From the sequence record LC788705.1: a stretch of 64,000 nucleotides of DNA; one strand, 5' to 3'. The stretch's first letter is position 1; the number at the start of each line of letters is the position of its first letter. The notes under the pieces are model-generated. The model worked only from the letters and a program-made list of their open reading frames with translations. It did no database searches and had not been told where the DNA came from. A program made the position numbers and the translations under genes. This DNA comes from Escherichia coli phage NG_A1. Shown here in pieces: positions 25,396-47,355 of this stretch.

Positions 25396-25591
25396 TTTTG
25401 TTCCTTTCTAAGAACCTATCATACTCAACCGTATCAACATATATAACACCATAGTCATCGGATTTATAGTCCATCTCCCACAGCTCACAGCGATAGCACC
25501 AACTACCATCCGCCCATACAAATATATCATCGGGGTGTGTATACACAGATTTAACTATGGACATACCTGTTTCCCTTGCTTCTCGACACAT
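25382..25591 (-). CDS. Hypothetical small protein
   Basis: 69-aa ORF. Confidence 0.35.
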   Translation of the reverse strand: MCREARETGMSIVKSVYTHPDDIFVWADGSWCYRCELWEMDYKSDDYGVIYVDTVEYDRFLERNKNGNK

Positions 25592-26387
25592 AAGGTCTAC
25601 CCTCTAAATGAGCTTCTACACGAGCAATAAAATCAGGATCACTAAAAGCATCTACCGCACCTTTACTCCAGTAAGGGACACCACGTTCTTCCAGCTGGTA
25701 CATCTCACTACGAGTCATACCTTGATAGCCCGGTTCCGCCGCGAGGGCACTATCATAGTAGTTAACTACCATAAATTTCGCAGCAGTCCTATTAAGAACA
25801 GGAAATAATTCCCAGTAGAAGTTAATTACTTGGTTAGAGCAACCAACCACAATGATCATATCTTGACTGGTAATACCATCAAAAACATTATACATTTCTG
25901 CGTATGCAGGAGCATGCTCTCCAAAGAAGATTACATTAGGTTTAACCCATTTATAATCATCTGGATCAATAGAATTGTATCCTACATCAATAATCCGTTT
26001 ATTGCTACTATTGTAGCTATCAGCTACAACAACCTCTTTTAAATATCCGTGAATATGCAGAATGTCACTATGTGGAACGCCAGCACGCTCAATAAGGTCA
26101 TCAACGTTGGTAGTCAAGTTTACTACTTGACCTGGATATTGTTTATACCATTCACCAATACGCAAATGCGCAAGATTGGGTTCAACAGTTTTTAGCTCTT
26201 CACGACGCTTGTTGTAAAACATATGGGTTTTATGATAAAAATTACCACGAAAGGCATGAATATTACATACTTCTTCTAGATCATAGTCATCCCACAATGC
26301 TTTACCACTAGCAGTATCAGTACGGAAGGCTCGTACACCACTTTCAACACTCAAACCCGCACCACTAATAATAATTAATCTACGCAT
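25551..26387 (-). CDS. Sir2 (sirtuin)-like NAD-dependent protein, no obvious Zn module
   Basis: 278 aa; GAGLSVESGVRAFR, TTNVDDLIERAG, HIHG, NVIFFGE motifs. Confidence 0.65.
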   Translation of the reverse strand: MRRLIIISGAGLSVESGVRAFRTDTASGKALWDDYDLEEVCNIHAFRGNFYHKTHMFYNKRREELKTVEPNLAHLRIGEWYKQYPGQVVNLTTNVDDLIERAGVPHSDILHIHGYLKEVVVADSYNSSNKRIIDVGYNSIDPDDYKWVKPNVIFFGEHAPAYAEMYNVFDGITSQDMIIVVGCSNQVINFYWELFPVLNRTAAKFMVVNYYDSALAAEPGYQGMTRSEMYQLEERGVPYWSKGAVDAFSDPDFIARVEAHLEGRPYVSRSKGNRYVHS

Positions 26388-27248: not shown

Positions 27249-29096
27249 TTATTTAGCTCGAATATCCTGATGTTTCACCCTGCCCATCACCTCGTGCTGT
27301 TTGCCAGGGTTAAATGGACGAGCACCCGGATTTCCAAGATACCCACAAACTCGACGAGTTACTTCAAGAGTTTCGGGGTCATGATTACCACAGATAGGGC
27401 ACTTAAATCCATCTTCGGATGCTATTGTTTCACCTAAGAATCCACATTTACCACAAGAATCCACTGGAGTATTAATACCGAAGTAATGAACTTTACTAGC
27501 AGCATAATTAATAACCCATTCCAGTGCATCTGGGAATCGTTTCATATCTGGTAGTTCTACATAGGAAATGCACCCACCAGAAGCAATCGGAGTAAAATTA
27601 GATTCATAATCAAATTTCACATTGGGAGCAACTTTGCGTTCTACATCAAGGTGGTGCGAGTTAGTGTAGTATCCTTTAGACAGAATATCTTCATGCTCCG
27701 GGAAATATTCACGGTCTAGACGACAAAAACGATCACATAGGGATTCTGATGGTGTAGCATACAGGCTATAACCTAACTTAGTTTCTTCCTTCTTCTGATC
27801 GACTCTATCCCGCATGTACTGCAATACACGCTGAACAAATTTGATGCAGGTCTCGGACATTGTGTCCACATCTTTGCCAAACATGAACTGTAGCATTTCA
27901 TGGCAACCAATATACCCTAGAGATACAGAAGCACGGTTATAGAAATGATCAAATACATATTCATCAGGCTCCAAGCGTAACCCAAAGGCTCCTGACATAT
28001 AGAGGATGGGTGCAGCTTTAGCTTGGATGTATTTTAAGCGATCAACTCTCCACTCCAATGCTTTTAACGCTGTATCCACACGTAGCTCAAGCAAATCAAA
28101 GAATAGATCAATATTTCCTTCAGCTTCGATAGCAATTCTAGGCAAGTTTACAGAAACAACACCTAAGTTATTACGACCGGCAGTTTCACCATCTTCTGTA
28201 GCAGCTAGGAATGAACGGCAACCCATAGAAACTTTATAGTCTCCAGTAACTTCCACAACCTTATCATAGCTGATATAATCTGGATACATACGTTCAGACG
28301 TACATTTCATAGCTAACTTCTTGATGTCATAATTAACATCTCCTGGTTTCATATTTACGCCATCACGAAGTACAAATACCAGTTTCGGGAAGATAGCTGT
28401 ACGTTTATTGATACCTAAACCATCCATGCGTACTTTCAGTATTGCTTTCTGTACTAGACGTGCTTCCCAAGAAGTTCCTAGACCAAAACCAAAGGTAATA
28501 AATGGACTCTGACCGTTAGAGTTGAACATCGTATTGATTTCATACTCTAGACCCTGACAGGCATCATAGACTTCCTTTTCAGTCATCTCCGTAGCCATTA
28601 CGGATGCTTTGGCTTCATCCTTAGTCCAACGTTTTGCAAACGCATGATTTTTGTCATATGATTTACGAACATAAGGGGCTAATACTTCATCAAGGCGGTC
28701 TACAGAAGTACCACCATACTGATGGGAGCTAACCTGAGTGATAATCTGAGCAGTAATAGCCGCCGCAGTAGTGATAGAGTTTGGAGTGCTAATTTCAGCA
28801 TTACCAACCTTCATACCATTCTTCAACATATCTTCCAAAGCTACCAGACAACAGTTAGTCATGCCTAATGCAGCATAATCAGCATCATGGAAATGAATAT
28901 CCCCAATCATATGAGCATTTCGAATCTGGATTGGCATTTCTTCTAGAATTAGATACTTACTCAATTCACCTGCAAGCATATCCCTTTGTGTAGGGAAACG
29001 TTCTGAGGGTTTATTAGCATTATTAAACAGCAGCTCTTCATCTGCTGACCCTTCGATAATCTCTTTGCAGTTTCTAATCAATTCATCTTTGTTCAT
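27249..29096 (-). CDS. nrdD: Anaerobic ribonucleoside-triphosphate reductase (class III, NrdD)
   Basis: 615 aa; C-terminal glycyl-radical motif TRRVCGYLG, Cys-rich zinc site CGKCGF...CPICG. Confidence 0.9.
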   Translation of the reverse strand: MNKDELIRNCKEIIEGSADEELLFNNANKPSERFPTQRDMLAGELSKYLILEEMPIQIRNAHMIGDIHFHDADYAALGMTNCCLVALEDMLKNGMKVGNAEISTPNSITTAAAITAQIITQVSSHQYGGTSVDRLDEVLAPYVRKSYDKNHAFAKRWTKDEAKASVMATEMTEKEVYDACQGLEYEINTMFNSNGQSPFITFGFGLGTSWEARLVQKAILKVRMDGLGINKRTAIFPKLVFVLRDGVNMKPGDVNYDIKKLAMKCTSERMYPDYISYDKVVEVTGDYKVSMGCRSFLAATEDGETAGRNNLGVVSVNLPRIAIEAEGNIDLFFDLLELRVDTALKALEWRVDRLKYIQAKAAPILYMSGAFGLRLEPDEYVFDHFYNRASVSLGYIGCHEMLQFMFGKDVDTMSETCIKFVQRVLQYMRDRVDQKKEETKLGYSLYATPSESLCDRFCRLDREYFPEHEDILSKGYYTNSHHLDVERKVAPNVKFDYESNFTPIASGGCISYVELPDMKRFPDALEWVINYAASKVHYFGINTPVDSCGKCGFLGETIASEDGFKCPICGNHDPETLEVTRRVCGYLGNPGARPFNPGKQHEVMGRVKHQDIRAK

Positions 29097-29754
29097 TAAT
29101 TATTTCCTCAATAAACCTTGCTACTACTTCTGGCTCAATACTAAAAAATTCTGTAGCACCATCAAAATCTTTATATTGACAATTATATTCCTTAAACTGT
29201 AAATGGGTTTCTCTCTCAATATGCATAGCTTTTGATCTATCTGAAAAGCTATACTCCTTAAATATTTTTAAATCATGTATGTTAGAGGAAGTTTTAATAT
29301 CTCTGAGTCTATCTTTAGTTCTGCTAGACACACCTATTTTGGTTCCCACATTACTTACTAAAATATATACGTTAGTAGGATAATTATCCTTCTCTAATAA
29401 ACATATAGGACAACCAGAATTATGATTTCTAACACTATCAAGTGTAGACTCCCATTTATGATCATTCTCACAGCTGAACATGATTTTACTCTTGGAATTG
29501 ATGTATTTACCTTCCATCTTTATTCCACGGGCAGCTAAAGATTCATTTACTTCTTTAAGATCTAAAGTACGGCTAGCACAATAAGGGCAACCTCTACCAC
29601 CTTTTACGTTATCTACTCTAGCTTCCCAACTATGCCCATTAGAGCACTTAAATATAGCCTTGGATTTAGCTGATATATACGTGCTTAGCATAACTATCCC
29701 TCTAGGAGCAAGTGCTAAGTTCACATCTTCTGTAGTTATTTTCTTTCTTACCAT
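29083..29754 (-). CDS. Zinc-ribbon repeat protein with GIY-YIG/T5orf172-like domain (putative homing endonuclease)
   Basis: 223 aa; two C-x4-H...CPxC ribbons then NVYILVSNVGTKIGVSSR. Confidence 0.45.
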   Translation of the reverse strand: MVRKKITTEDVNLALAPRGIVMLSTYISAKSKAIFKCSNGHSWEARVDNVKGGRGCPYCASRTLDLKEVNESLAARGIKMEGKYINSKSKIMFSCENDHKWESTLDSVRNHNSGCPICLLEKDNYPTNVYILVSNVGTKIGVSSRTKDRLRDIKTSSNIHDLKIFKEYSFSDRSKAMHIERETHLQFKEYNCQYKDFDGATEFFSIEPEVVARFIEEIINEQR

Positions 29755-43080: not shown

Positions 43081-43589
43081 AGAACTGGATAACTGATGCT
43101 TTTAATGTAAAAGCTTCCGAGGTTAGTTGCGCACTGCCTAAACCACGCGGTAGTTGGTTCCAGACTAACCAACCAGTCTGCTGAATAGTTTTATTACGAT
43201 TTAACTATGTCCAGGCTAAAGAAGAACTTTAGAAGGTATTCTAGGATAGTGAAGTTCTTTCTCCATATCGGAGTAGTTTTTCAAGCTATCCACAAAGTGG
43301 GAAATGCTGACATGAGAGATGTCACTAATGGTGCACAATAGCACAGGTAATTCGCGATAACTCCTGTTGAGTAGCAGCAAAAGGTGGGAAGTCATGACCC
43401 CAAGCCTAACCGAGTCCTCAATATACCGCAGGACATAACTACTAAGTCACCCTGACTTAAACTGGAAAATAATAGACGTTACTGTATTTTGTCTTGAAAT
43501 ACTTAATGAGTGAGACTTATGACTCTCCCGGTATCGTCTGTATTTTTAAGAGTTTTTACGAGAGTTCTTAAAAATACTTAAACGGGGTG

Positions 43590-43657
43590 TAGTCTAAGGG
43601 AGAGGCAGGAGTCTTCTAAATTCCTTTATGCAGGTTCGAATCCCTTGTCACGCACCA
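43590..43657 (+). ncRNA. tRNA-like element ending in CCA
   Basis: ggttcgaatcc T-loop at 43633-43643 and ...cgcaCCA 3' end; stems imperfect. Confidence 0.25.
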
Positions 43658-43689
43658 AATTTGATGGTCAGAGTAAATTAAACCTACTA

Positions 43690-43733
43690 TCTCGGTTGAG
43701 CTGTTTTAATGGGTTCGAATCCCAGCGAGGCGT
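43690..43733 (+). ncRNA. tRNA-like minihelix (T-arm plus short acceptor-like stem)
   Basis: ctcg...tggg-ttcgaat-ccca-g-cgag. Confidence 0.2.
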
Positions 43734-43782
43734 AACTGCCTGGTGTGATAGAGGCATCATTCCACTAACATTGGAAAAACTA

Positions 43783-44013
43783 ATGAAACGAAAATTAAAA
43801 AAGTCTTATATAATTAAGATAAATAAGCTACGAAGTAGGGCAAAAGGATGGCCACTTCGAATATTAATTGCGGATAACCATACTAGATACCATGCGGAAC
43901 AACGTCATTACAAACAGTGGGAGTCATACTGCCGCTCAAAAGCAGGTCGTTTAGATGGATCTTATGAGTTTCTATTTGGTAAAAAGCCTACTAGAGTAGC
44001 TTTAGGTAATTAA
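43783..44013 (+). CDS. Small basic hypothetical protein in the tRNA region
   Basis: ORF from ATG 43783 (track ORF 43645..44013 begins inside tRNA-like sequence). Confidence 0.3.
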   Translation: MKRKLKKSYIIKINKLRSRAKGWPLRILIADNHTRYHAEQRHYKQWESYCRSKAGRLDGSYEFLFGKKPTRVALGN

Positions 44014-44018
44014 TACTT

Positions 44019-44109
44019 GGAAGAGCAAATCGAATTGGCGACGAAAACCGCTTGGAAAGTGGCTGACTGGTAAAACGGCTTGAGAGTTCAAATCTCTCCT
44101 CTTCCGCCA
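44019..44109 (+). tRNA. Type II tRNA, probably tRNA-Ser (anticodon GGA tentative)
   Basis: 7-bp acceptor ggaagag/ctcttcc, discriminator G, CCA; T-arm gagag-ttcaaat-ctctc; 91 nt with long variable arm. Confidence 0.5.
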
Positions 44110-44121
44110 AACAATTTATAT

Positions 44122-44216
44122 GGTAGGTCAATCCAACGGCTGGCGCTGGACTCCGACTTGAAATCGGTTGATCGTAGTGATACGGTGTAAGGGTTCGATC
44201 CCCTTACCTACCTCCA
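44122..44216 (+). tRNA. tRNA-Ser (UGA), type II
   Basis: Acceptor ggtaggt/acctacc, CCA; anticodon loop cTTGAaa on stem ccga/tcgg; T-arm aaggg-ttcgatc-ccctt. Confidence 0.55.
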
Positions 44217-44221
44217 AATCT

Positions 44222-44352
44222 TGGAATATGCCGGAATTGGTAGACGGGACTGCCGAATAGGTTTACTAGGAACATCCACTCCTAGAAATATACCTTAAAA
44301 GCGGTTGAGTTAAATGGTCTAACTCATGAAGGTTCAAGCCCTTCTATTCCTT
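44222..44352 (+). ncRNA. Atypical tRNA-like element, about 131 nt
   Basis: Leu/Tyr-type D-arm ccggaattggtagacgg, T-arm gaagg-ttcaagc-ccttc, acceptor-like tggaata/tattcct, but about 80 nt between D- and T-arms. Confidence 0.3.
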
Positions 44353-44581
44353 GATACATCAATGGCTCAAAGTGTAACGGTGCTATTTGATGCTCTTGGA
44401 AAGACTTTCCCGACATGCGTTCGGGGGTAAGCTTCTGAGGCTAGAATAGAAGAGTTTCTGAGAGCCGCCACAATTGAAAATTCGTACTCGTCTTGAGCTG
44501 CATGCAATAGGAGATAACTTGATTAGTATTCTAGAACATGCTAATTGAGGATGGTTTCGCTAACCCTGCGAGTTTTCAATT

Positions 44582-44659
44582 GTGGCTATATCATAATTGG
44601 TTAATGATCCTGATTGTGAATCAGGCCTATGTGGATTCGAATTCCACTAGCCACCCCCA
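44582..44659 (+). tRNA. tRNA-His (GUG)
   Basis: Acceptor gtggcta/tagccac, D-stem tcat/atga, anticodon loop ttGTGaa on stem cctga/tcagg, T-arm gtgga-ttcgaat-tccac, 3' CCCCA. Confidence 0.65.
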
Positions 44660-44684
44660 AATTAACTTAAATAGGAAATAAAAT

Positions 44685-44879
44685 ATGGCTGATTTCTGCA
44701 AACAATGCTCCATTGATATGTGGGGCAGAGATACTGGTGATCTTTCTGGGCTGATTACAGAAGCCGAAGTCAAAGAAGGTTATGGTGCAGTTGTGGTTTG
44801 TGAAGGATGCGGAGTCATTCGAGTAGATCATGAGGGTAAGCGCCTTGAAGAACCTGAGCCAGTTACCCTATTTCCCTAA
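44685..44879 (+). CDS. Small Cys-rich (zinc-ribbon-like) protein
   Basis: 64 aa; CKQC...CEGCG. Confidence 0.4.
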   Translation: MADFCKQCSIDMWGRDTGDLSGLITEAEVKEGYGAVVVCEGCGVIRVDHEGKRLEEPEPVTLFP

Positions 44880-44892
44880 AGTAAAGAATTAT

Positions 44893-44968
44893 TGGGATGT
44901 AGATCAATTGGCAGATCGTCGGCCTCTGACTCCGAAGGTTCCACGTTCGATCCGTGGCATCCCAGCCA
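44893..44968 (+). tRNA. tRNA-Gln (CUG)
   Basis: Acceptor tgggatg/catccca (U1:A72), D-stem gatc/gatc, anticodon loop ctCTGac, T-arm ccacg-ttcgatc-cgtgg, G+CCA. Confidence 0.7.
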
Positions 44969-44974
44969 AATACT

Positions 44975-45050
44975 TGGAGAGTAGTGTAACGGTTAGCACA
45001 ACGGCCTTTGACTCCGTTAATGGTAGGTTCGATTCCTCCTTCTCCAGCCA
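44975..45050 (+). tRNA. tRNA-Gln (UUG)
   Basis: Acceptor tggagag/ttctcca (U1:A72), anticodon loop ctTTGac, T-loop ttcgatt, G+CCA. Confidence 0.7.
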
Positions 45051-45057
45051 AATTAAT

Positions 45058-45132
45058 GCGTGATTAGTTCAGTGGCTAGAATAACTGGCTTCCAACCAGT
45101 AGACACGAGTTCGACTCTCGTATCCCGCACCA
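45058..45132 (+). tRNA. tRNA-Gly (UCC)
   Basis: Acceptor gcgtgat/atcccgc (one mismatch), anticodon stem actgg/ccagt with loop ctTCCaa, T-arm acgag-ttcgact-ctcgt, A+CCA. Confidence 0.7.
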
Positions 45133-45146
45133 AATAAGGAAACACT

Positions 45147-45398
45147 ATGCACGTTTTTGAGTTTCGTAATAAAAGTACTGATAAGCGAGTTATCATTATT
45201 GGAGAAACATATCGAGCATATGAACAAACTGATGGCTCTGTTATCTTGAATGATGAGAAAGGAGGTTTTAGCTTTTATCCAGAAGAACCTTATGAAGAGT
45301 TTCGAAAACAATTTAACCTAGACTGGAGAAAGCATTTAAACACTGTTGCTTCATCTGTAGTATTGCCAACTACCAGTACTGTACTCTCTAATGGCTGA
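45147..45398 (+). CDS. Hypothetical protein
   Basis: 83-aa ORF after AAGGAAA. Confidence 0.4.
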   Translation: MHVFEFRNKSTDKRVIIIGETYRAYEQTDGSVILNDEKGGFSFYPEEPYEEFRKQFNLDWRKHLNTVASSVVLPTTSTVLSNG

Positions 45399-45555
45399 CA
45401 ACCTAAAAGTAAAGATTGATAAACAAAAGAAACGTGTAGAAGTAGAGATTGGTGAAGAACGTGTTGCCTTTACTTTTGAATTTCTACAGCAAATGGCAAT
45501 GGCAGTTATGACTGATAAGTCTCCTGTTATTGAAAAAGAAATCCCGTTGAAATAA
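45391..45555 (+). CDS. Small hypothetical protein (54 aa)
   Basis: ATG 45391 overlapping previous ORF end; hairpin 45541-45565 follows. Confidence 0.3.
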   Translation: MADNLKVKIDKQKKRVEVEIGEERVAFTFEFLQQMAMAVMTDKSPVIEKEIPLK

Positions 45556-45565
45556 CGGGATCATC

Positions 45566-45640
45566 GCTCCTAAAGCATTGCTGGCGATGCAGTTGCCTTG
45601 TAAGCATCTGAACCGGGTTCGATTCCTGGTGGGAGCACCA
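45566..45640 (+). tRNA. tRNA-Thr (UGU)
   Basis: Acceptor gctccta/tgggagc, D-stem gcat/atgc, anticodon loop ctTGTaa, T-arm ccggg-ttcgatt-cctgg, A+CCA. Confidence 0.65.
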
Positions 45641-45655
45641 AATTTAAAAATTCAT

Positions 45656-45684
45656 TTGCCTTCTCTCTTATTTATTGTTATAAT
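45656..45684 (+). promoter_or_regulatory. Early-type promoter
   Basis: TTGCCTtctctcttatttattgtTATAAT. Confidence 0.6.
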
Positions 45685-45714
45685 ATTTATATAAATTAAT
45701 GAGAGGGAAACCAA

Positions 45715-46005
45715 ATGAAACGTTATCTTTCTATTGTATTCCAAACTGGTGGTCAAAGATATACCTATGAATTTCCATCTTCTTGGAAAATCAAAGAAGG
45801 TGATCAAGTAGTAGTGTTAACACCGCGTGAAGGGTATAAAGTAGTAATGGTTAAACAAGTATTCCCAAAAGATCATGAACCAGCTAAAGGCATTCGCTAT
45901 AAGATGATTCATGGTGTGGTCCGTCAAGTACCACGAACTGAGGTAGAAGTAGATAAGACTGGAGAAACTAAATTCCATTATACTTCTTACTTAGATAGTG
46001 TGTGA
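45715..46005 (+). CDS. Hypothetical protein
   Basis: 96-aa ORF with GAGAGGG RBS. Confidence 0.5.
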   Translation: MKRYLSIVFQTGGQRYTYEFPSSWKIKEGDQVVVLTPREGYKVVMVKQVFPKDHEPAKGIRYKMIHGVVRQVPRTEVEVDKTGETKFHYTSYLDSV

Positions 46006-46020
46006 TGTAAATATTCTAAT

Positions 46021-46097
46021 ACTTCGGTAGCTTAGCGATCTAAAGCACCCGGCTGATAACCGAGAGATCGGGGGTTTAAATCCCTCCCGGAGTACCA
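46021..46097 (+). tRNA. tRNA-Ile (GAU)
   Basis: Acceptor acttcgg/ccggagt, D-stem gctt/aagc, anticodon loop ctGATaa, T-arm ggggg-tttaaat-ccctc, A+CCA. Confidence 0.6.
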
Positions 46098-46193
46098 AAT
46101 TTAGGAATTAAGACTATGCGTCCAGGAAAGTTTAAAAAAGCTAATTGGTCTAAAGAGTATAAAGAATACTTACTTAGTCTAGTAAAACATAAC

Positions 46194-46269
46194 AGTTAGT
46201 TGGCAGAGTGGTTATGCACCTCCTTCATACGGAGCGACTACAGTGGTTCAAATCCACTACTAACTACCA
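46194..46269 (+). tRNA. tRNA-Met (CAU); could be initiator or a lysidine-modified Ile isoacceptor
   Basis: Exact acceptor agttagt/actaact, anticodon loop ttCATac, T-arm agtgg-ttcaaat-ccact, A+CCA. Confidence 0.6.
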
Positions 46270-46306: not shown

Positions 46307-46501
46307 ATGTTAACAATTAAAATAATGTCAGCCAAGAATGGTGAACATATCCATACAGGCAAAAGTGTAAGCTTTAATCCTAGAAATAAAAGATTGGCTA
46401 TAGTTGGAGTAGACCAAGCCATCTTTTTAAAAGAAGATGAAGTAGCATATGTCATGAACCAAACTGGTAAGACAGTTTCCGTATACTATGGAAAAGTATA
46501 A
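46307..46501 (+). CDS. Hypothetical protein
   Basis: 64-aa ORF. Confidence 0.4.
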   Translation: MLTIKIMSAKNGEHIHTGKSVSFNPRNKRLAIVGVDQAIFLKEDEVAYVMNQTGKTVSVYYGKV

Positions 46502-46543
46502 AGAATAAATAGCTGAGCCAAATTCTAACATCGGGGAGATCTA

Positions 46544-46912
46544 ATGAAAGCATATCAAAGTCTTAAATCTGGCGTAATTAACCTTGTTCATGAAAATCAG
46601 ATTATTCAGCTATACTCCGACAACGGTGAACTTAAACAGAAAGTTCTAGTTGAAGATCTAGAAGGTATCACACCACAATTCGATCCCGAAGCCTTCCGTG
46701 AAGTCAAAGTGGAAGTCGCCCCTCAAATCGAAGGTGGTCAGCACCTAAATGTCAATGTGTTAAGCCGTGATCAGCTTTTGGATGTGCAGAAACATCCTGA
46801 AAAATATCCTCAGTTGACCATCCGTGTCTCTGGCTACGCTGTTCGATTTAACGCACTGACTCGTGAACAACAGAACGACGTTATTAGTCGTACATTTACT
46901 CAGGCGATGTAA
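46544..46912 (+). CDS. grcA: GrcA/YfiD-like autonomous glycyl-radical cofactor protein
   Basis: 122 aa; [11 protein letters not shown]...[31 protein letters not shown] matches the glycyl-radical domain of GrcA/PFL. Confidence 0.8.
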
Positions 46913-46993
46913 TGGGGTTTGGATACGATTTCTCCCAGCTACGCAAGGTAGTCGAGCAAACTCCGTTTATCTCCCAAGTTTTAGGAGAAATGG

Positions 46994-47308
46994 GTGGATC
47001 GAGCATTAAGACGCCATCACCGGCAACGTGTGAAGAACAACCGCAAGAAGTATTGGACAGTCTTTCCACATGAAGAAAGCCCTAAGCGGTTAGGTATTAT
47101 CACTACTACTCCTTGCATCTGTTCTTGCTGGATGTGTGGGAACCCTCGCAAATATTATAAGAATAGTAAAGCAGGTATGAAAACCTCGGAGATTAGGAAA
47201 ATGGAAGCAATGATTACGGATATTTCAAATGATGAATTTGATGGCTTTGTAGGATTCGGAGAAGGAATTAGCTCAGGCTGTTTCGAAGATGTACGCCCCG
47301 ATTTGTAA
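46994..47308 (+). CDS. Hypothetical Cys-containing protein
   Basis: 104-aa ORF, start uncertain. Confidence 0.35.
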   Translation: MDRALRRHHRQRVKNNRKKYWTVFPHEESPKRLGIITTTPCICSCWMCGNPRKYYKNSKAGMKTSEIRKMEAMITDISNDEFDGFVGFGEGISSGCFEDVRPDL

Positions 47309-47317
47309 TTAATAACA

Positions 47318-47355
47318 AACCCCAGCTATTGAATAGGTAGTCTGGGGTTTTTCTG
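47318..47355 (+). terminator. Rho-independent terminator
   Basis: ccccag...ctgggg hairpin then TTTTTC. Confidence 0.7.

What the first reader, a model, noticed from the sequence alone, without database searches (positions are those of the whole stretch)
46544..46912. Phage-encoded GrcA/YfiD-like glycyl-radical 'spare part' protein beside the tRNA cluster
There is strong motif identity to the glycyl-radical domain ([10 protein letters not shown]). GrcA-type proteins restore oxygen-cleaved glycyl-radical enzymes such as pyruvate formate-lyase. In a phage that also encodes NrdD this suggests investment in keeping glycyl-radical chemistry working under fluctuating oxygen.
Basis: partly seen in the sequence, partly recalled or inferred. 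Interest (0 to 1): 0.45.

Follow-up and report, generated by a model that had tools for sequence, protein, structure and literature searches.

The report
Phage copy of GrcA spare-part protein
This is a real, conserved 122-residue gene of a T5-like phage that encodes a small "spare part" carrying the radical-bearing tail of the host enzyme pyruvate formate-lyase, but it is ordinary: phage T5 and over 400 close relatives carry it, several records already name it GrcA, and its T4 counterpart was characterised biochemically in 2001.

Summary
ORF 46544..46912 (+) encodes 122 aa with a good Shine-Dalgarno site. It carries TIRVSGYAV, a glycine-radical signature found only twice in the window (here and in NrdD; 0.015 expected by chance). 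Pfam Gly_radical matches at E 7e-17. The last 62 residues are 77% identical to the C-terminus of E. coli PflB and 76% to E. coli GrcA. The whole protein matches the phage family phrog_1209 and is 51% identical to T4 Vs.6 (taken to be Y06I), which has been shown to rescue oxygen-cleaved pyruvate formate-lyase. The window is a T5-like phage, and the gene is the orthologue of T5.056. About 435 phage records carry it, against about 443 close T5 relatives, under strong purifying selection (dN/dS 0.08). It scores below NCBI's cut-off for bacterial GrcA because its N-terminal half is of the phage type. NrdD is in the window, but the protein shows no similarity to NrdD's radical domain, so rescue of NrdD is unlikely. 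T5 encodes no activase, so host PflA must activate it. The likely role is to keep host PFL working after oxygen exposure. In some other phage lineages the gene sits inside nrdD/nrdG operons, which hints at formate supply for NrdD. Verdict: real and correctly interpreted, already known, low interest.

The parts
46544..46912 (+). CDS of the phage-type autonomous glycyl-radical protein (122 aa plus stop); orthologue of T5.056 and relative of T4 vs.6
   Evidence: dN/dS is 0.08 across 7 T5-like orthologues.
46535..46538 (+). Shine-Dalgarno GGAG, 5 nt before the ATG. The string GGAGATCTAATG is also present in T5.
   Evidence: read from the sequence
46544..46723 (+). N-terminal half (aa 1-60), of the phage type (MKAYQ...). 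BLASTP does not align it to E. coli GrcA, but it aligns end to end with T4/T2 Vs.6. By analogy with YfiD residues 1-60 it probably helps bind cleaved PFL and aids activation.
   Evidence: dN/dS 0.11. AF2 predicts beta strands at pLDDT about 80, but it does so for bacterial GrcA too. The role of YfiD 1-60 is from PMC8683613.
46724..46909 (+). C-terminal glycyl-radical domain (aa 61-122): 48/62 identical to E. coli PflB 698-759 and 47/62 to GrcA 66-127
   Evidence: dN/dS 0.03. The top Foldseek hits are 6OWR YfiD and PFL 2PFL.
46817..46843 (+). Glycine-radical signature TIRVSGYAV. Codon 46832-46834 encodes Gly97, which aligns with PflB Gly734 and GrcA Gly102, the residue that carries the radical.
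   Evidence: Residue numbering of G734/G102 is from PMC12338860.
45656..45684 (+). Sigma-70-like promoter (TTGCCT-17-TATAAT with an upstream TG), at the position of T5 promoter P11. It is the probable start of the transcription unit that reads through tRNA-Ile and tRNA-Met into this gene (inferred).
   Evidence: T5 annotation.
47317..47352 (+). Intrinsic terminator hairpin (AAACCCCAG ... CTGGGGTTTTT), at the position of the annotated T5 terminator after T5.055. Probable end of the unit.
   Evidence: The consensus scan missed it because the loop is longer than 8 nt.
46912..47073 (+). 53-aa ORF whose ATG overlaps the TAA of the GrcA-like gene (TAATG). Possibly translationally coupled. Function unknown (phrog_31464).
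46994..47308 (+). 104-aa ORF (orthologue of T5.055) in the same unit, with a CICSCWMC cysteine cluster. Function unknown (phrog_4499), and too small to be a radical-SAM activase.
27249..29096 (-). Context only: phage NrdD (class III ribonucleotide reductase, close to T4 NrdD), 17.4 kb away on the other strand. It is a possible indirect beneficiary through PFL-made formate.
   Evidence: The formate link is from PMC4390871.

Best explanation
The gene encodes a phage-type autonomous glycyl-radical cofactor of the Y06I/Vs.6 family, the phage counterpart of bacterial GrcA/YfiD. The proposed mechanism is as follows. The protein is made early in infection from the tRNA-region transcription unit. Its C-terminal 62 residues copy the radical domain of host pyruvate formate-lyase (PflB). 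When oxygen has cleaved active PflB at Gly734, the small protein docks onto the cleaved enzyme. Host PflA (PFL-activating enzyme, radical SAM) then puts a radical on its Gly97, and that radical is passed to PflB Cys419. A 14-kDa part thereby restores pyruvate -> acetyl-CoA + formate without resynthesis of a 170-kDa dimer. A lytic phage that shuts off host gene expression cannot rely on the host to replace PflB or GrcA. The spare part therefore keeps fermentative ATP/acetyl-CoA production and formate supply running during infection of gut enterobacteria at fluctuating oxygen. Shown here: the ORF, the motif, family and fold similarity, conservation, purifying selection, and the absence of a phage activase. 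Taken from the literature on the T4 and E. coli homologues: activation by PflA and rescue of cleaved PFL. Inferred: that the T5-type protein does the same, and the physiological benefit.
For: Pfam Gly_radical E 7e-17. The GrcA, GrcA3 and GrcA2 models are the top NCBIfam hits, followed by PFL. PDB: GrcA 6OWR 5e-30 and PFL 2e-26, with 48/62 identities to the PflB C-terminus, including every residue around the radical glycine. 41 positions are invariant across phage proteins, bacterial GrcA and PflB. The AF2 model's best structural matches are YfiD and PFL. It matches phage family phrog_1209 over its full length at 1e-46 and is 51% identical to T4 Vs.6, which RefSeq names GrcA. Y06I of T4 and YfiD are the two biochemically validated spare parts (PMC8683613). 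dN/dS is 0.08 overall, 0.03 in the radical domain and 0.11 in the N-half. About 435 phage records carry it at >=80% aa identity, against about 443 records whose DNA polymerase is >=80% identical. The whole T5 genome has no NrdG/PflA homologue, and the positive control worked, so a host activase is needed. The best DNA-level match in every one of 5426 E. coli genomes listed is the 3' end of pflB, at 77-78%.
Against: No experiment exists for the T5-type protein; none was found in the paper library. It scores 118 bits against TIGR04365, below the curated 170-bit cut-off, because only residues 50-122 align. The N-terminal half, which in YfiD matters for binding cleaved PFL and for activation, is diverged from the bacterial one. 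This window's copy has Val at position 81, where at least 90% of relatives have Ala. Why a phage with a short infection cycle needs PFL repair has not been demonstrated.
Confidence: 0.8

Rival explanations
1. The protein is a spare radical domain for the phage's own NrdD, or for host NrdD, repairing oxygen-cleaved class III ribonucleotide reductase.
For: NrdD is in the same genome. In Aeromonas phages and jumbo Klebsiella phages the homologue lies directly next to nrdD/nrdG. All glycyl-radical enzymes suffer the same oxygen cleavage, and spare parts for enzymes other than PFL have been speculated about (PMC8683613).
Against: BLASTP against the window's NrdD gives E 4.4 and does not align the two glycine motifs. 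The motif context is TIRVSGYAV here but TRRVCGYLG in NrdD. The domain is 77% identical to PflB and stays that way under dN/dS 0.03, which points to PflB/PflA as the constraining partners. In the T5-like phages the gene is 17 kb from nrdD on the other strand.
Confidence: 0.03
2. The protein is a decoy or modulator rather than a repair part. It occupies host PflA or PflB in order to redirect or shut down host fermentative metabolism.
For: Phage early genes often inhibit host enzymes. The N-terminal half differs from the bacterial one. Free YfiD is a poor PflA substrate (PMC8683613), so binding without turnover is conceivable.
Against: The radical glycine and all 41 family-invariant positions are kept. 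A pure binder would not need them, nor dN/dS 0.03. The T4 homologue restores activity in vitro.
Confidence: 0.05
3. It works as in the best explanation, but what selection acts on is formate supply for the phage's formate-dependent NrdD (anaerobic dNTP synthesis) rather than energy metabolism.
For: Formate is the reductant of the studied class III RNRs, and PFL makes it (PMC4390871). The window's NrdD is very close to T4 NrdD (596 bits). The homologue sits inside nrdD-nrdG operons in Aeromonas phage Ah1 and two other Aeromonas-type contigs, in four jumbo Klebsiella-type phages, and next to nrdAB in Vibrio phage D479. T4 and T5 both carry NrdD together with this gene.
Against: There is no adjacency in the T5-like or classical T4-like genomes. 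Co-occurrence could simply reflect a shared anaerobic gut lifestyle. Hosts have other routes to formate. No experiment exists.
Confidence: 0.3
4. It is a decaying or neutral fragment of a captured host pflB/grcA gene with no function.
For: The 3' half is 77-78% identical in DNA to host pflB, so it is ultimately of cellular origin.
Against: The reading frame is intact and has a good SD site. Length is 122 aa in all seven orthologues compared. dN/dS is 0.08 at dS up to 0.66. About 98% of close T5 relatives carry it. Full-length relatives occur in T4-like and jumbo phages.
Confidence: 0.02

Closest known systems
Bacteriophage T4 Vs.6 (taken to be Y06I; RefSeq NP_049730, 'autonomous glycyl radical cofactor GrcA')
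   Same: Both are small stand-alone phage proteins (120 vs 122 aa). They share the MKAYQ N-terminus, align over the full length at 51% identity (E 3e-38), fall in the same PHROG and have the same C-terminal radical domain. According to the literature, Y06I is activated by PFL-AE and rescues oxygen-cleaved PFL.
   Different: The N-terminal halves differ by several indels. The radical domain of T2 Vs.6 is identical to E. coli GrcA from the EGGQ motif to the C-terminal end, with one difference in T4, whereas the T5-type domain is equally far from GrcA and PflB. T4 also encodes NrdG; T5 encodes no activase. The genomic neighbourhood differs: the vs-regB region in T4, the end of the tRNA cluster in T5-like phages. 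The identity Vs.6 = Y06I rests on my own knowledge plus the RefSeq product name; no tool output states it directly.
E. coli GrcA (YfiD), PDB 6OWR, TIGR04365
   Same: Similar size (127 aa). It is 73% identical over residues 51-122, with the same radical glycine context. The predicted topology matches, including a beta-rich N-half in AF2 models of both proteins.
   Different: BLASTP does not align residues 1-50. The score against TIGR04365 is 118 bits, below the 170-bit cut-off. The phage gene is expressed from a phage early transcription unit rather than under host FNR/ArcA-type control (the latter from general knowledge, not tested here).
C-terminal glycyl-radical domain of E. coli pyruvate formate-lyase PflB (residues 698-759) and TdcE
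   Same: 48/62 identical residues. DNA is 77-78% identical to the 3' end of pflB and about 75% to tdcE.
   Different: The phage protein lacks the about 700-residue catalytic barrel. GenBank names such as 'pyruvate formate-lyase', 'formate acetyltransferase' or 'acetyltransferase-related protein' are therefore misnomers.

Membership tests
Glycyl-radical domain superfamily (Pfam PF01228 Gly_radical) | Profile match above the gathering score | tested here: met
   62.3 bits against a cut-off of 22.2, E 7.2e-17, residues 62-103
Glycyl-radical domain superfamily (Pfam PF01228 Gly_radical) | Glycine-radical signature with the conserved Gly (R-V-[CS]-G-Y) | tested here: met
   TIRVSGYAV at aa 92-100. 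Gly97 aligns with PflB G734 and GrcA G102.
Phage autonomous glycyl-radical cofactor (T4 Y06I/Vs.6 family, phrog_1209) | Full-length similarity to the phage family, including the N-terminal half | tested here: met
   phrog_1209 E 9.9e-47, residues 1-122 on profile positions 1-121 of 121. 51% identity to T4 Vs.6 over the full length.
Phage autonomous glycyl-radical cofactor (T4 Y06I/Vs.6 family, phrog_1209) | Small stand-alone ORF (about 120 aa), not the end of a full-length PFL gene | tested here: met
   122-aa ORF. The stop-to-stop frame is only 127 codons.
Phage autonomous glycyl-radical cofactor (T4 Y06I/Vs.6 family, phrog_1209) | Radical installation by PFL-activating enzyme and restoration of activity to oxygen-cleaved PFL | not testable with these tools
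   Known only for T4 Y06I and E. coli YfiD (PMC8683613).
Bacterial GrcA equivalog (NCBIfam TIGR04365 spare_glycyl) | Whole-protein score above the curated cut-off (170 bits) | tested here: not met
   118.4 bits, and only residues 50-122 align. GrcA3 gives 114 bits against 158, and GrcA2 gives 88 against 145. I therefore file the protein under the phage family, not as a bacterial GrcA equivalog.
Bacterial GrcA equivalog (NCBIfam TIGR04365 spare_glycyl) | N-terminal about 60 residues homologous to YfiD 1-60 | tested here: inconclusive
   BLASTP finds no alignment. MAFFT aligns them weakly. AF2 predicts a similar five-strand N-half for both proteins, which suggests distant homology.
Pyruvate formate-lyase (TIGR01255), the name used in many GenBank records | About 750-aa catalytic barrel with the Cys418/Cys419 active site | tested here: not met
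   84 bits against a cut-off of 994. Only profile positions 683-744 are matched.
Class III RNR radical domain (possible NrdD spare part) | Sequence similarity to the NrdD C-terminal glycyl-radical region | tested here: not met
   BLASTP against the window's NrdD gives E 4.4, and the motifs are not aligned.

The most novel reading that the evidence does not exclude
The phage spare part may be functionally tied to the phage's anaerobic ribonucleotide reductase. By keeping host PFL alive after oxygen exposure it would secure formate, the reductant of T4/T5-type NrdD, and so anaerobic dNTP synthesis. That would explain why unrelated phage lineages place the gene inside nrdD-nrdG operons (Aeromonas phages, jumbo Klebsiella phages) or next to nrdAB (Vibrio phage D479). 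It would also explain why T5-like phages, which carry NrdD but no activase, keep the gene as a near-core gene. I found no paper in the searchable library that makes this link for phages.
Probability: 0.3. Interest if true: 0.45.

Novelty: already known. Interest (0 to 1): 0.15.

Why it matters
It matters little as a discovery. The gene has been annotated in T5 (T5.056) since the genome was published, several related phage records name it GrcA, and the T4 homologue is one of only two experimentally validated spare-part proteins. Three modest points remain. First, many database records mislabel it as 'pyruvate formate-lyase', 'formate acetyltransferase' or 'acetyltransferase-related', and that should be corrected. 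Second, the T5-type protein has never been tested. Its diverged N-terminal half offers a natural variant for probing how spare parts recognise cleaved PFL. Third, the recurrent placement of homologues in RNR operons suggests a testable PFL-formate-NrdD link in phage anaerobic nucleotide metabolism.

Tried and rejected
1. NrdD as the partner. BLASTP of the protein against the window's NrdD was not significant, so I rejected it.

2. A phage-encoded activase.
- The CxxxCxxC scan of the window found only the 104-aa ORF 46994..47308. That ORF has no Pfam hit and is too small to be an activase.

3. Literature specific to T5.056 or to T5-like GrcA. Searches with 'T5-like' plus 'pyruvate formate-lyase', Tequintavirus/Epseptimavirus plus glycyl-radical terms, 'T5.056', and GrcA plus bacteriophage found nothing relevant.

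4. A folded N-terminal beta domain as a phage-specific novelty. AF2 gives beta strands at pLDDT about 80. The control run on an enterobacterial GrcA gives the same result, although NMR reports that region as disordered (PMC8683613). The prediction is therefore not a distinguishing feature.

5. Function of the neighbouring small ORFs. PHROGs returned only unknown-function families, and Pfam returned nothing significant.

6. General adjacency to RNR genes. In 80 IMG/VR loci it holds only for the Aeromonas-type and jumbo Klebsiella-type phages, not for T5-like or classical T4-like phages. It therefore supports the novel reading only partly.

7. Recent capture from the host. No E. coli genome has a match covering more than half of the gene, and identity is only 75-78%.

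Full report
**What is there.**
The window carries an ATG-initiated ORF at 46544..46912 on the plus strand. It encodes 122 residues and ends in TAA. GGAG lies 5 nt upstream of the start codon. [10 protein letters not shown] is residues 94-103. A regular expression for the glycine-radical signature (written from my memory of the PROSITE pattern) matches the six-frame translation of the window twice. One match is TIRVSGYAV in this ORF and the other is TRRVCGYLG in NrdD. 200 shuffles gave a mean of 0.015 matches.

**What the window is.**
Megablast places the region in T5-like phages (Demerecviridae, Markadamsvirinae). It is 97% identical to Escherichia phage DaisyDussoix over 1.4 kb and 96% to phage Baret over 24 kb, and hundreds of Salmonella and Escherichia phages match. 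Phage T5 has the same gene, T5.056. It is 369 nt long and annotated 'putative acetyltransferase-related protein, match to IPR001150'. It sits at the end of the tRNA cluster next to tRNA-Met. DT57C annotates the orthologue as 'putative autonomous glycyl radical cofactor GrcA'. Other records call it pyruvate formate-lyase, formate acetyltransferase, glycyl radical cofactor or hypothetical protein.

**Family assignment.**
- Pfam Gly_radical matches at E 7.2e-17.
- The best NCBIfam hits are the GrcA models: TIGR04365 at 118 bits, GrcA3 at 114 and GrcA2 at 88. PFL follows.
- All of these fall below their curated cut-offs, because only residues 50-122 align.
- Among solved structures the best hits are E. 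coli GrcA/YfiD (6OWR, E 5e-30) and E. coli PFL (E 2e-26).
- The last 62 residues are 48/62 identical to PflB 698-759 and 47/62 to GrcA 66-127. PflB and GrcA are themselves 48/62 identical, so the three are equidistant.
- The whole protein matches the phage family phrog_1209 end to end (E 1e-46).
- It is 51% identical over its full length to T4 Vs.6, which RefSeq names 'autonomous glycyl radical cofactor GrcA'.
- An alignment of phage proteins, bacterial GrcA and the PflB C-terminus has 41 invariant positions, all in the C-terminal domain.
- An AlphaFold2 model (mean pLDDT 74.5) finds YfiD and PFL as its best PDB matches.

**Is it a working gene?**
Seven T5-like orthologues all have 122 codons. 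Nei-Gojobori dN/dS is 0.08 overall, 0.11 for residues 1-60 and 0.03 for residues 61-122, with pairwise dS up to 0.66. tblastn finds the protein at >=80% identity in 435 phage records. The window's DNA polymerase is found at >=80% identity in 443 records. The gene is therefore nearly universal among close T5 relatives. More distant full-length relatives (about 50-70% identity) occur in more than 1000 T4-like, Aeromonas, Klebsiella and jumbo phages.

**Expression context (inferred).**
A promoter-like site lies at 45656-45684 (TTGCCT-17-TATAAT with TG). It corresponds in position to T5 promoter P11. A hairpin with a T-run at 47317-47352 corresponds to the T5 terminator annotated after T5.055. The probable unit runs in this order:
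- the promoter;
- a 96-aa ORF;
- tRNA-Ile and tRNA-Met;
- a 64-aa ORF;
- the GrcA-like gene;
- one or two small ORFs;
- the terminator.

**Mechanism.**
According to the literature, YfiD of E. coli and Y06I of T4 are the only two validated spare-part proteins. PFL-activating enzyme installs a glycyl radical on them, and the activated protein complexes with oxygen-cleaved PFL and restores activity (PMC8683613, citing Wagner et al. 2001). The radical on GrcA G102 is passed to PflB C419 (PMC12338860). YfiD residues 1-60 promote binding to cleaved PFL and activation but are not needed for catalysis. The T5-type protein keeps the radical glycine and its full conserved context, so the same mechanism is the best-supported explanation. 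I equate T4 Vs.6 with Y06I from my own knowledge and from the RefSeq product name. No tool output states that identity explicitly.

The activator must be a host enzyme. The window has no radical-SAM activase. 118.9 kb of phage T5 (everything except the duplicated right terminal repeat) has no tblastn match to two phage NrdG proteins or to E. coli PflA at E below 0.08, while the positive control scored strongly. T5-like phages thus carry two glycyl-radical proteins, NrdD and this one, and rely on host NrdG and PflA. The T5 annotation lists no such enzyme either.

**The NrdD idea.**
NrdD is in the window at 27249..29096 on the minus strand (Pfam NRDD 3.9e-172), and it is close to T4 NrdD (596 bits). 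The small protein has no detectable similarity to it (E 4.4). Direct repair of NrdD is therefore unlikely.

An indirect link is plausible. Formate is the reductant of the studied class III reductases, and formate is the product of PFL (PMC4390871). Context in other phage lineages fits a link to nucleotide reduction:
- Aeromonas phage Ah1 has nrdD-nrdG-vs.6-nrdC-nrdH, with overlapping stop and start codons.
- K64-1-type jumbo Klebsiella phages have nrdD, then the GrcA-like gene, then DUF4326, then a radical-SAM activase.
- Vibrio phage D479 has nrdA-nrdB followed by the GrcA-like gene.
- In a survey of 80 IMG/VR loci, adjacency within 1.3 kb of nrdD or nrdG occurs in three jumbo Klebsiella-type loci and two large Aeromonas-type loci. 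It does not occur in T5-like or classical T4-like phages.

I treat this as the most novel reading that is still open, with probability about 0.3.

**Checks that removed apparent novelty.**
AlphaFold2 predicts a five-strand beta structure for the N-terminal half at pLDDT about 80. The same run on an enterobacterial GrcA gives the same picture at pLDDT 80-87, although NMR finds that region disordered in solution. The prediction therefore does not separate the phage protein from GrcA. If anything, it suggests that the two N-halves are distantly homologous. No E. coli genome has a match to more than the 3' half of the gene. The best match is pflB at 77-78% DNA identity, so this is an old acquisition and not a recent capture.

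**Verdict.**
It is an already known and already annotated gene family, with an experimentally characterised homologue in T4. Interest is low. What remains is the untested T5-type variant, the frequent mis-annotation as 'pyruvate formate-lyase', and the possible PFL-formate-NrdD connection.

Noticed in passing
L008 3022-3884; L009 4185-7163; L011 2656-6372; L041-L043, L071, L092: Homologues of this gene in other phage lineages are embedded in ribonucleotide-reductase operons. Ah1 has nrdD-nrdG-vs.6-nrdC-nrdH. K64-1-like jumbo phages have nrdD, GrcA-like, DUF4326, activase. Vibrio phage D479 has nrdA-nrdB-GrcA-like. I found no paper in the library that discusses this.
   Followed up: partly
window 27249-29096 (-) and the whole T5 genome (L093, L003, L094): T5-like phages encode NrdD but no NrdG or PflA-type activase (tblastn E >= 0.08). 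The phage class III reductase must therefore be activated by the host NrdG.
   Followed up: partly
window 46994-47308 (+) and 46912-47073 (+): Two overlapping small ORFs lie downstream in different frames. One is a 104-aa GTG-start ORF (orthologue of T5.055, AGGAGA Shine-Dalgarno site, cysteine cluster CICSCWMCGNPRK). The other is a 53-aa ORF whose ATG overlaps the GrcA-like stop codon (TAATG). Related genomes annotate one, the other, both, or only the C-terminal part of the 104-aa ORF. Which of them is translated is unresolved, and both have unknown function.
   Followed up: partly
window 46307-46501 (+): A 64-aa ORF (phrog_3909, unknown function) lies between tRNA-Met and the GrcA-like gene in this window. 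The same spacing is present in DaisyDussoix, where the ORF is not annotated. It is absent from T5, DT57C and SHSML-45, where the gene follows tRNA-Met by about 13 nt.
   Followed up: no
window 43582-46269: ARAGORN finds only 8 tRNA genes in the whole window (Arg, His, Gln x2, Gly, Thr, Ile, Met). DaisyDussoix and T5 have about 13 more tRNAs upstream of tRNA-His in the corresponding region. This phage seems to have a much reduced tRNA cluster.
   Followed up: no
L002 3001-3360 (T2 vs.6); L095 5561-5920 (T4 vs.6): The C-terminal domain of T2 Vs.6 is identical in protein sequence to E. coli GrcA from the EGGQ motif to the C-terminal end, with one difference in T4. The T5-type domain differs from GrcA at 15 of 62 positions. 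This suggests a much more recent exchange between T-even phages and host grcA.
   Followed up: no
window 46784-46786 (codon 81): This window's protein has Val81, where all six other T5-like orthologues, and at least 90% of 62 family members, have Ala. DaisyDussoix has its own P85L change at an otherwise invariant position.
   Followed up: no
window 29083-29754 (-): An ORF with DUF4379 zinc-finger, T5orf172 and MUG113 domains (likely a homing-endonuclease-like gene) lies immediately upstream of nrdD. Its end overlaps the nrdD start by 14 nt. T5 itself has a promoter there instead, and its annotated NrdD is shorter.
   Followed up: no
window 25551-26387 (-): A Sir2-family protein (Pfam SIR2, E 8e-25) is encoded downstream of nrdD, as in T5 (T5.102).
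   Followed up: no
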